In this document: positions 10,501-56,024 of the stretch, one piece after another | Layout: each line of letters opens with the position of its first letter | Position numbering within the stretch: the first letter of the stretch is position 1 | Assembly (NCBI GenBank): GCA_032718475.1 | Contig: JAUCBJ010006295.1 | Coordinates: 1-64,000, forward strand | Length of the DNA: 64,000 bases | Direction: 5' to 3' | From: Nemertoderma westbladi | Lineage: Eukaryota; Animalia; Xenacoelomorpha | The notes under the pieces: generated by a model | Told to the model about the DNA's origin: nothing | What the model saw: only the letters and a program-made list of their open reading frames with translations | The model's database searches: none | Translations under genes and position numbers: made by a program

Positions 10501-13500
10501 ATCGCCCCTGGTCCTTTATCGCTCCTGGTCCTTTATCGCCCCTGGTCCTTTATCGCCCCTGGTCCTTTATCGCTCCTGGTCCTTTATCGCCCCTGGTCCT
10601 TTATCCCCCAGGGTCTTTATCAACCCCGGTCCTTTATCGCCCCTGGTCCTTTATCGTTCCTGGTCCTTTATCGCCCCTGGTCCTTTATCGCCCCTGGTCC
10701 TTTATCGCCCCTGGTCCTTTATCGTTCCTGGTCGTTTATCGCCCCTGGTCCTTTATCGCCCCTGGTCCTTTATCGCCCCTAGTCCTTTATCGCCCCTGGT
10801 CCTTTATCGTTCCTGGTCCTTTATCGCCCCTGGTCCTTTATCGCCCCTGGTCCTTTATCGATCCTTTCGATCCCTGTACGTCGCAGTTCTGCAGAGGACT
10901 TTCTTGAGACGCATCTTAAAGGAGACTTGCCTCGAAGATGCAGATGAACTAGCAAATGTCATGGGTCATAGGGAGTTGTGGTGGCGCAATTTTATCACCA
11001 CCCGGCACAGCATTCTTAATATATGTAATATATATAATGCAGCTGCAATGCAGCATGCCGATCGTAGTAGTTATGAGCACGGGGCTATAAATGCTACAGA
11101 CTAGCTCTAACAAGGTTTTCACCCTTTATATTTTCAATAAATGGGAACCATTGGAAAGGTTTGCTGTGGAAGATCACTCATGGTGGTGAACAGGTATTCC
11201 CTGGCTTACTAGGCCTAAACGTGTCTCCCATTCAAAATTTATATTTGTCACAGTGGCGATAATGACCCTGGGACGATACGTACCCAAGGTGCGATAAAGG
11301 ACCATTTGATGGGCGATAAAGCCCTACCTCCTCCAACACAAACTATAAGGCTAACATTACACTTTCTACTCACATTCCGACCGTGACGGTCTGGCGATTG
11401 GTCCCTCTGCAGGATTCTTCGCTCTACTATTTCGTCTCGTGTCAATCTGAATGAAGAAAGAACCTCCGCTATTGACAAGGCCCCTGAGTCTGTAATTCCA
11501 TTGGCTGTTACCAACAACGACAAAAGAGACCGATTCAGACGCAGTGCCTAAATTGAAGGTAAAGGACTTTTATTATGGCATAGATTGGGTATTTCCCAAA
11601 TTTTGAAACAAATAATAATTTCGATAAATCCGATTAAAAGATAATTTTCAGAAATATTTTAACGCTGTTTAATTTGTTCATTTTATGTTTTTTACACCTG
11701 ATTCTGATAAGAGGGAGTGAATGCACATGTGATCCGTTAATGCATTGCAATAGACCCCGTTTACATTTAATGCTACGGTCTTACCTCAGTTAATAAAGAA
11801 AACATTTTTCACAACTTACATTTACAATATGCTGAAATCCTGCGTCCCCAATGTAATTATAACTTAGATTTAGAGTTTGAAGATGTGTGTTACTCCTTTT
11901 CGGGGTTGCCAAAGCATCTGCGATAGATTGTGCGGCTGTTGCGTCGATCTGATTGTTCCGTAAAGAAAGACTCGTTAATCTGCGAACGGAAATTCAAAAA
12001 ATACGGCGTAAAGTGTTATTTCCGCCACCCGTCGACAGTATTGGCATCCAACTTGAGGCCCCAGGTTCGACACCTGGTCGAATCATTCACTATTTGTGAA
12101 CAGTTCATAAATTACAGAACACTCCAAGGTTGGTTGGTGATGTTCTTACAGAAAGTCAGGGGGTAGTAGAACACGCCAAGGTTGGTTGGTGCTGTACTTA
12201 CAGAGAGTCAGGGGGTAGTAGAACACTCCAAGGTTGGTTGGTGCTGTACTTACAAAAGGTCAGGGGGTAGTAGAACACTCCACGTTTGGTTGGTGTTGTA
12301 CTTACAGAGAGTCAGGGGGTAGTAGAACACTCCAAGGTTGGTTGGTGCTGTACTTACAGAGAGTCAGGGGGTAGTAGAACACTCCAAGGTTGGTTGGTGC
12401 TGTACTTACAAAAGGTCAGGGGGTAGTAGAACACTCCACGTTTGGTTGGTGTTGTACTTACAGAGAGTCAGGGGGTAGTAGAACACTCCAAGGTTGGTTG
12501 GTGCTGTACTTACAGAAAGTCAGGGGGTAGTAGAACACTCCAAGGTTGGTTGGTGCTGTACTTACAGAGAGTCAGGGGGTAGTAGAACACTCCAAGGTTG
12601 GTTGGTGTTGTACTTACAGAGAGTCAGGGGGTAGTAGAACACTCCAAGGTTGGTTGGTGCTGTACTTACATAAAGTCAGGGGGTAGTAGAACACTCCAAG
12701 GTTGGTTGGTGCTGTACTTACAGAGAGTCAGGGAGTAGTAGAACACTCCAAGGTTGGTTGGTGCTGTTCTTACAGAGTCAGGGGGTAGTAGAACACTCCA
12801 AGGTTGGTTGGTGCTGTACTTACAGAAAGTCAGGGGGTAGTAGAACACTCCAAGGTTGGTTGGTGCTGTACTTACAGAGAGTCAGGGGGTAGTAGAACAC
12901 TCCAAGGTTGGTTGGTGTTGTACTTACAGAGAGTCAGGGGGTAGTAGAACACTCCAAGGTTGGTTGGTGCTGTACTTACATAAAGTCAGGGGGTAGTAGA
13001 ACACTCCAAGTTTGGTTGGTGCTGTACTTACAGAGAGTCAGGGAGTAGTAGAACACTCCAAGATTGGTTGGTGTTGTACTTACAGAAAGTCAGGGGGTAG
13101 TAGAACACTCCAAGGTTGGTTGGTGCTGTACTTACAGAAAGTCAGGGGGTAGTAGAACACTCCAAGGTTGGTTGGTGCTGTACTTACAGAGAGTCAGGGA
13201 GTAGTAGAACACTCCAAGGTTGGTTGGTGTTGTACTTACAGAGAGTCAGGGGGTAGTAGAACACTCCAAGGTTGGTTGGTGCTGTTCTTACAGAGTCAGG
13301 GGGTAGTAGAACACTCCAAGGTTGGTTGGTGCTGTACTTACAGAAAGTCAGGGGGTAGTAGAACACTCCAAGGTTGGTTGGTGCTGTACTTACAGAGAGT
13401 CAGGGAGTAGTAGAACACTCCAAGGTTGGTTGGTGTTGTACTTACAGAGAGTCAGGGGGTAGTAGAACACTCCAAGGTTGGTTGGTGCTGTATTTACAGA

Positions 13501-56024: not shown

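What the first reader, a model, noticed from the sequence alone, without database searches (positions are those of the whole stretch)
12116..54078. Recurrent splice-junction-seeded minisatellites: introns filled with tandem copies of their own splice sites
Seen: 4 of the 12 large arrays, unrelated in sequence and in two different genes, have a unit that straddles a coding exon/intron boundary. They are the LRRC71 exon 4 donor (52 bp x ~65), SPATA48 exon 2 donor (29 bp x ~174), SPATA48 exon 5 donor (46 bp x ~48) and SPATA48 exon 6 acceptor (22 bp x ~47). In each, the terminal copy is the functional junction, the expansion runs only into the intron, and the GT or AG is kept in most copies. Inference: with about 33 splice sites in about 33 kb of non-array DNA, a random ~40-bp seed would hit one only a few percent of the time, so 4 of 12 looks enriched. 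That suggests a mutational process targeted at splice junctions (for example co-transcriptional R-loops or breaks, RNA-templated or rolling-circle amplification) or selective retention. I do not know of this being described as a genome-wide system, but cannot check the literature.
Basis: partly seen in the sequence, partly recalled or inferred. Interest (0 to 1): 0.88.

Follow-up and report, generated by a model that had tools for sequence, protein, structure and literature searches.

The report
Splice-junction "mirage" repeats in tiny introns
In two neighbouring animal genes, short pieces spanning an exon edge and its splice signal are copied head-to-tail 46 to 175 times into the intron; this repeat type is already known from lancelets and human genes, and here it likely clusters at exon edges because these introns were only about 60 to 170 bases long before the repeats grew.

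Summary
The four arrays are real and lie as described; each unit is an exon edge plus its GT or AG. A spliced contig leaves the genome at the first donor copy of SPATA48 exon 5, and homologs align across both array-filled SPATA48 introns. The LRRC71-like junction rests on its open frame alone. Four of 12 exceeds a uniform null (expected 0.5, P=0.001; donors only), but P rises to 0.003-0.07 if introns grew from short ancestors, and the window was picked for this pattern. With the arrays removed, the three host introns are 59, 83 and about 150-170 nt, the shortest of 16. That favours short-intron geometry plus tolerance over a process aimed at junctions. GT is not specially conserved, variants spread by block duplication, and every alternative site tested gives a stop. 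These are the 'mirage' minisatellites of lancelets and the F7/ABCA7 type in humans; this scan noted them before in many other genomes. No genome was held, so genome-wide enrichment is untested. New member of a known kind; interest 0.25.

The parts
12116..15509 (-). Donor array of the LRR gene (LRRC71-like) exon 4: 52-bp unit (40 exon + 12 intron nt), 65 copies plus a 22-nt partial copy; fills 96% of intron 4
15470..15619 (-). LRR gene exon 4; its donor (GT at 15469-15468) is the first array copy
   Evidence: predicted from open 397-aa frame with GT-AG at every junction; no RNA seen
11820..11979 (-). LRR gene exon 5 (Pfam LRR_6); 136 nt of non-array intron lie before it
41497..41603 (+). SPATA48 exon 2; donor after 41603 is the first copy of the 29-bp array
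   Evidence: homolog alignment across exons 2/3
41589..46646 (+). Donor array of SPATA48 exon 2: 29-bp unit (15 exon + 14 intron nt), 175 copies; fills 99% of intron 2; last donor copy to acceptor is 83 nt
46717..46855 (+). SPATA48 exon 3
   Evidence: spliced contig, run X4 record 17
49710..49858 (+). SPATA48 exon 4
   Evidence: spliced contig, GT..AG joints on both sides
50417..50555 (+). SPATA48 exon 5; donor after 50555 is the first copy of the 46-bp array
   Evidence: spliced contig stops matching the genome at 50555 and goes on for 1057 nt
50525..52713 (+). Donor array of SPATA48 exon 5: 46-bp unit (31 exon + 15 intron nt), 47 copies, 17 identical to the functional copy
52714..52960 (.). 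247-bp insertion flanked by a 12-bp direct repeat, lodged in the last (diverged) copy of the 46-bp array; likely a retroposed element with target-site duplication
   Evidence: no tRNA or Rfam match
52975..53033 (+). Remnant of the pre-array intron 5: last donor copy to first acceptor copy, 59 nt
53031..54079 (+). Acceptor array of SPATA48 exon 6: 22-bp unit (14 intron + 8 exon nt), about 46 copies, most variable of the four
54071..54277 (+). SPATA48 exon 6; acceptor AG at 54069-54070 is the last array copy
   Evidence: frame, SPMIP7 match from residue 1, gap-free homolog alignment across exons 5/6

Best explanation
These four arrays are 'mirage'-type minisatellites: a 22-52 bp piece across an exon edge is repeated head-to-tail into the intron, likely after an ordinary local duplication in what was then a 59-170 nt intron, and the array is likely tolerated because the copy touching the exon still works as the splice site. 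Step 1 (inferred): this genome turns local sequence into long minisatellites at a high rate; half the window is array. Step 2 (geometry): a unit that overlaps a 60-150 nt intron straddles a junction roughly half the time. Step 3 (shown as pattern, mechanism inferred): arrays grew by repeated duplication of multi-unit blocks, as in slippage or unequal exchange. Step 4 (shown for one junction, inferred for three): splicing uses the copy next to the exon, by the first-donor rule and exon definition; any slip to another copy gives a premature stop and would be cleared by nonsense-mediated decay. Step 5 (inferred): arrays inside exons are purged, and arrays anchored on an exon edge may outlive arrays in freely turning-over intron DNA, which adds to the excess.
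For: Pre-array introns of 83, 59 and 148-170 nt rank 1-3 of 16 (rank-sum P=0.0018; 0.0125 if the 247-bp insertion is left in); placement is 10-87 times likelier under short-intron weighting than under uniform junction targeting. Equal-rate-per-intron null: expected 1.4-1.7, P=0.04-0.07. The insertion with its 12-bp duplication lies inside an array copy, so at least one array is older than some intron growth. Block-duplicated variant strings in the arrays, and GT no better kept than other columns. Spliced contig uses the first of 47 donors. 0 of 171, 0 of 44, 0 of 34 and 0 of 65 alternative sites give an open frame. Same layout and normal splicing reported in PMC3087553, PMC3902484 and PMC1557585.
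Against: Every null still leaves an excess: uniform P=0.001, growth models P=0.003-0.033, equal-per-intron P=0.04-0.07; the fitted enrichment over a per-base null is 17-fold (interval 4-64). An equal rate per intron has no obvious molecular basis. The short-intron test was made after seeing the data. Short remainders could be a result, not a cause: the LRR array ends in a partial copy, which hints at a deletion at its far end. Three of four cases are donors. Nothing outside this window could be tested.
Confidence: 0.6

Rival explanations
1. Duplications are born preferentially at or near splice junctions of germline-transcribed genes, through transcription-linked breaks, R-loops or exposed linker DNA at exon edges, and then expand.
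For: Excess over the per-base null, P=0.001, carried by donors (3 vs 0.26, P=0.002). It persists at P<0.04 under all six growth models. SPATA48 is a sperm microtubule inner protein by its PDB label. PMC3087553 calls the generating mechanism unclear.
Against: All four fall on 6 of 33 junctions, those of the three shortest introns. 0 of 10 small repeats touch a junction, though newborn duplications should show the bias. Junction strength shows no consistent link: leave-one-out ranks 3, 4 and 16 of 17 donors and 4 of 16 acceptors.
Confidence: 0.2
2. The excess is a chance cluster in a window picked because it showed the pattern.
For: At P=0.001 per window, 1000 such windows give a 66% chance of at least one like it. 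Donor-like words occur in units with no known exon (22499 and 38467 arrays, 9.9 and 9.7 bits).
Against: The same layout recurs in several lancelet and human genes in print. The concentration on the shortest introns is a second pattern that chance does not predict.
Confidence: 0.1
3. The arrays are favoured by selection, either to lengthen introns near the minimal spliceable size or as decoy or poison splice sites that tune transcript level.
For: Host introns were the shortest (59 and 83 nt). In human ABCA7, array length goes with exon skipping and a second donor is used (PMC5954066). All alternative sites are stop-bearing.
Against: No extra conservation of GT; about half the exon-2 copies carry CTG in place of CAG before the GT (91 of 175); the A of the acceptor AG is the joint least conserved column (78%). 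Growth to 2-5 kb far exceeds what lengthening would need.
Confidence: 0.07
4. The arrays are assembly artefacts.
For: No long read was seen to span any array; array lengths are unverified.
Against: 15-22 distinct unit variants per array with nested block duplications. An insertion with a 12-bp duplication inside one copy. In DNA runs X1 and X2 (two studies; one may be the assembly's source) single-copy contigs stop at 50554 and summed depth rises from 32 and 28 to 576 and 1221 in the bin that holds the first unit.
Confidence: 0.03

Closest known systems
Lancelet 'mirage' minisatellites (Adh3, globins BflGb6 and BflGb9, troponin C, PGBD5). Seen: passages of PMC3087553 and PMC3902484. The original Adh3 paper (Canestro 2002) was not held and is known to me only through these.
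   Same: Tandem copies of an exon-intron boundary, at both donor and acceptor ends, in several unrelated genes; units of 10-160 bp; many but not all copies keep GT or AG; normal splicing reported; concerted turnover.
   Different: Copy numbers here (46-175) far exceed the 2-7 given for the globin and PGBD5 cases, and the arrays make up 91-99% of their introns. The passages read give no enrichment test and do not mention short pre-array introns. The organism here is an animal of unknown group (NAGPA about 50% identical to coral, mollusc and vertebrate proteins).
Human F7 intron 7 37-bp VNTR, with the 6-16, CBS, lamin B2 and PDGF cases listed in its introduction. Seen: abstract, introduction and discussion of PMC1557585.
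   Same: First unit spans the exon-intron boundary; identical donors follow; the most upstream one is used.
   Different: 5-25 copies, donors only, single genes; the scanning rule was tested in mammalian cells, not in this animal.
Human ABCA7 intron 18 25-bp VNTR. Seen: passages of PMC5954066.
   Same: Every unit carries the donor GT; alleles reach about 427 copies (10.7 kb), the same size range as here.
   Different: The unit starts at the GT and holds no exon bases; minor use of the second donor and length-linked exon skipping are shown there and untested here.
Intron gain by tandem duplication (Rogers model; De Grassi and Ciccarelli 2009, PMC2812944, passages)
   Same: Minisatellites at exon-intron boundaries alter gene structure.
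   Different: Here no new intron arose: existing short introns were inflated and the coding sequence is unchanged.

Membership tests
Mirage minisatellite | Head-to-tail tandem array whose unit spans an exon-intron boundary | tested here: met
   All four units contain exon and intron bases
Mirage minisatellite | Terminal copy is the authentic junction and the rest lie in the intron | tested here: met
   Direct for SPATA48 exon 5; by homology and frame for exons 2 and 6; by frame only for the LRR gene
Mirage minisatellite | Many but not all copies keep GT or AG | tested here: met
   63 of 63, 173 of 175, 46 of 48 GT; 32 of 43 AG
Mirage minisatellite | Regular splicing is not disturbed | tested here: inconclusive
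   One contig from one run shows normal splicing at 1 of 4 junctions; contigs drop rare isoforms
Mirage minisatellite | Concerted turnover within the array | tested here: met
   Block-duplicated variant strings; mean column identity 93-97%
Mirage minisatellite | Length polymorphism between haplotypes or cells | not testable with these tools
   Only short-read contigs were listed; they break at the array
   All four on the three shortest pre-array introns of 16; n is small and the test post hoc
   No genome held; no orthologous locus found in metagenome contigs
Functional decoy splice-site array | Splice dinucleotide better conserved than the rest of the unit | tested here: not met
   GT columns are matched or beaten by 36 of 50, 16 of 27 and 40 of 44 other columns; the A of AG is the joint least conserved

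The most novel reading that the evidence does not exclude
In repeat-prone invertebrate genomes, minimal introns (about 60-150 nt) are true hot spots where minisatellites are born or kept, at about 17 times the per-base background, so that self-copying of splice junctions is a main route by which tiny introns become kilobase introns without transposons.
Probability: 0.2. Interest if true: 0.6.

Novelty: new member of a known kind. Interest (0 to 1): 0.25.

Why it matters
The structure itself is known and looks harmless. The window is a dense, clean example: three introns inferred to have been 59-170 nt are now 3.5-5.1 kb, 91-99% made of copies of their own ends. If the link to minimal introns held genome-wide, it would give a simple route for intron growth and a natural test of splice-site choice among dozens of identical donors or acceptors outside mammals. 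It also warns that such arrays can mislead gene prediction and read mapping.

Tried and rejected
Whole-genome test: no genome held. Orthologous loci: alignment A1 had no usable conserved stretch; the single-exon scan of metagenome contigs gave 596 pattern matches and 0 confirmed. Run search listed no holder on record as RNA; run X4 is labelled 'DNA?' but behaves as RNA (GT..AG joints); run X6 gave 0 laid contigs. Homolog searches with SPATA48 exon 6 and LRR exon 3 found nothing. PDB searches with SPATA48 exon 5 and LRR exons 3 and 4 named neither gene. The Atlas hit for LRR exon 3 (flotillin/SPFH, low recognition) was rejected. Kelch hits for exon 6 are a summed-repeat effect. No tRNA in the window and no Rfam match for the 247-bp insertion. 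Hidden junctions in the other 8 arrays: two units hold donor-like words (22499 on +, 38467 on -) but no exon evidence; left uncounted. Breakpoint microhomology: only short or imperfect matches, no common motif. One-step rolling-circle or mRNA-templated origin: rejected on variant blocks and intron bases in the unit. Earlier notes on this genome or look-alike DNA: none. Literature searches for a genome-wide test found none; five returned no paper at all, and the library lacks most subscription journals. PMC10078293 (passages) links repeats to splicing variation but the passages seen do not test junction-spanning units. No supplements were opened. Searches used two LRR exon edges that were off by 6 and 1 nt; one search corrected them with unchanged P values.

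Full report
Setting. The window is animal DNA of an unidentified group (NAGPA exon 2 is about 50% identical to coral, mollusc and vertebrate proteins). Twelve long tandem arrays with unrelated units of 17-55 bp fill 31,285 of 64,000 bp. Four genes were modelled. SPATA48/SPMIP7 on + has nine exons at 41002-56024 (Pfam and PDB support). An LRR gene on - has seven visible exons from 35843 to 4368, open for 397 aa; the name LRRC71 is recalled, not confirmed. NAGPA (19775-22042) and a Ly6/CD59-like gene (7449-8597) lie on + inside introns of the LRR gene. Together they give 33 junctions, all GT or AG.

Observation. Run X4, labelled 'DNA?' but showing GT..AG joints, has a 1683-nt contig that joins exons 3, 4 and 5 and leaves the genome at 50555, the first of 47 donor copies, although the stretch laid went on to 50600. 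The letters of that contig before exon 3 and after exon 5 were not shown; their lengths (199 and 1057 nt) fit exons 1-2 and exons 6-9 plus a 3' tail but do not prove those joins. Nineteen homologs of 290 aa or more (19 of 33 hits; shorter ones were dropped) align without a gap at the exon 5/6 join, and most also across exons 2/3. The LRR exon 4 donor rests on frame and splice consensus only. Two DNA runs break at the array edge and show many-fold higher summed depth over the unit, so the 46-bp array is not an assembly invention; array lengths are unverified.

Is it more than chance? With each array collapsed to one unit and seeds wholly inside coding exons excluded, 0.50 straddling arrays are expected and P(>=4 of 12)=0.0011; donors 3 vs 0.26 (P=0.002), acceptor 1 vs 0.24 (P=0.22). 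None of 10 small repeats touches a junction; all 22 together give P=0.005. That null assumes today's intron lengths. For the 9 genic arrays, models in which introns grew from 80-300 nt give P=0.003-0.033, and an equal rate per intron gives P=0.04-0.07 (nested genes were subtracted roughly and the cut-off last intron was set to 2.3 kb). A fivefold longer life for junction-anchored arrays would give P=0.08. The window was also chosen for the pattern: 1000 windows give a 66% chance of one such.

What the anatomy adds. Removing the arrays leaves 83 nt for SPATA48 intron 2, 59 nt for intron 5 and 148-170 nt for LRR intron 4. For intron 5 a 247-bp insertion is also removed: it is flanked by a 12-bp direct repeat and sits inside the last, diverged donor copy, so it came after the first duplication. 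These three are the shortest of 16 introns (rank-sum P=0.0018; 0.0125 with the insertion left in). The placement is 10-87 times likelier if short introns are weighted than if all 33 junctions are equal targets. This test is post hoc, and a short remainder could follow from deletions at the array's far end; the LRR array ends in a partial copy, while both SPATA48 donor arrays end about at a unit boundary. Within arrays, strings of variant units recur as blocks, which points to stepwise slippage or unequal exchange. GT is no better kept than other columns, 91 of 175 exon-2 copies have CTG in place of CAG, and the A of the acceptor AG is the joint least conserved column at 78%. The last point could be weak selection against competing AGs, but those variants come from few events. 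Use of any other copy gives a premature stop: 0 of 171, 44, 34 and 65 sites stay open.

Mechanism. Most likely (0.6): ordinary local duplication in a genome that readily makes minisatellites; in a 60-170 nt intron a 22-52 bp unit often straddles a junction; the array grows into the intron because the exon-side copy keeps the site; stray use of other copies would be cleared by nonsense-mediated decay; anchoring may lengthen array life. Shown: the layout, block turnover, first-donor use at one junction, stops. Inferred: birth rate, pre-array intron lengths, decay of stray transcripts, longer life. Rivals: junction-biased birth (0.2), chance in a chosen window (0.1), selection for longer introns or decoys (0.07), artefact (0.03).

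What is known. Tandem duplications of exon-intron boundaries are named 'mirages' in lancelets, at both ends of introns and in several genes, with normal splicing and an unclear origin (PMC3087553 and PMC3902484, passages). Human F7, 6-16, CBS, lamin B2 and PDGF carry donor-spanning minisatellites, and F7 experiments show the most upstream donor wins (PMC1557585, abstract, introduction, discussion). ABCA7 reaches about 427 copies (PMC5954066, passages). Ten searches of the held library found no genome-wide enrichment test. Earlier notes of this scan report the same arrays in other genomes (annelids, sea urchin, abalone, sharks and others). They gave me the 'mirage' lead, which I checked in the papers, and one of them already offered the short-intron reading, which I tested here. 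They are unchecked notes and not counted as support.

Verdict. A real, dense example of a known repeat type. The one useful addition is that all four arrays sit on the three shortest ancestral introns. New member of a known kind; interest 0.25.

Noticed in passing
window 19775-22042 (+): NAGPA gene with a single 267-bp intron, nested on the opposite strand in intron 2 of the LRR gene; exon 2 is 1.2 kb and GC-rich, which suggests intron loss or retroposition (vertebrate NAGPA has more introns, from recall).
   Followed up: partly
window 7449-8597 (+): Two-exon Ly6/CD59-like gene (weak Pfam CD59 and UPAR_LY6 hits) nested in intron 6 of the LRR gene.
   Followed up: partly
window 35843 (-) and 41002 (+): The LRR gene and SPATA48 start head-to-head about 5 kb apart, with two arrays (36382-37906, 38467-40060) between them; a shared promoter is possible. 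The 38467 unit holds donor-like words on the - strand, so an untranslated first exon of the LRR gene could make it a fifth junction array.
   Followed up: partly
window 3-2108: The 49-bp array lies beyond the last visible donor of the LRR gene and runs off the window; it may end at that gene's next acceptor.
   Followed up: no
window 22499-26966: 48-bp unit holds a strong donor-like word on + (9.9 bits), 457 bp downstream of the NAGPA stop; no exon evidence.
   Followed up: partly
window 10891-11071, 33225-33473, 48603-49065: Three decayed copies of the 3' end of one very abundant retroelement-like repeat; the 22-bp array at 33504-34598 begins right at the tail of one copy and looks seeded from it.
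   Followed up: partly
window 36172-37947: The 55-bp array is flanked by a 37-bp inverted repeat (36172-36208 and 37907-37942), as if grown inside a miniature inverted-repeat element.
   Followed up: partly
window 12116-12137 and the bases below: The partial last copy of the LRR array is followed by a GT in the same exon phase as the true donor, consistent with an 18-bp microhomology deletion; use of it would still give a stop.
   Followed up: yes
window 54026-54070: The exon-derived part of each acceptor unit supplies a branch-point-like word (35 in the array), the last one 17 nt before the real AG, so the array may have replaced the original branch point.
   Followed up: partly
window 27500-28480: A long imperfect inverted repeat (arms near 27480-27960 and 28000-28490, seen by eye), probably a non-autonomous DNA transposon.
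   Followed up: no
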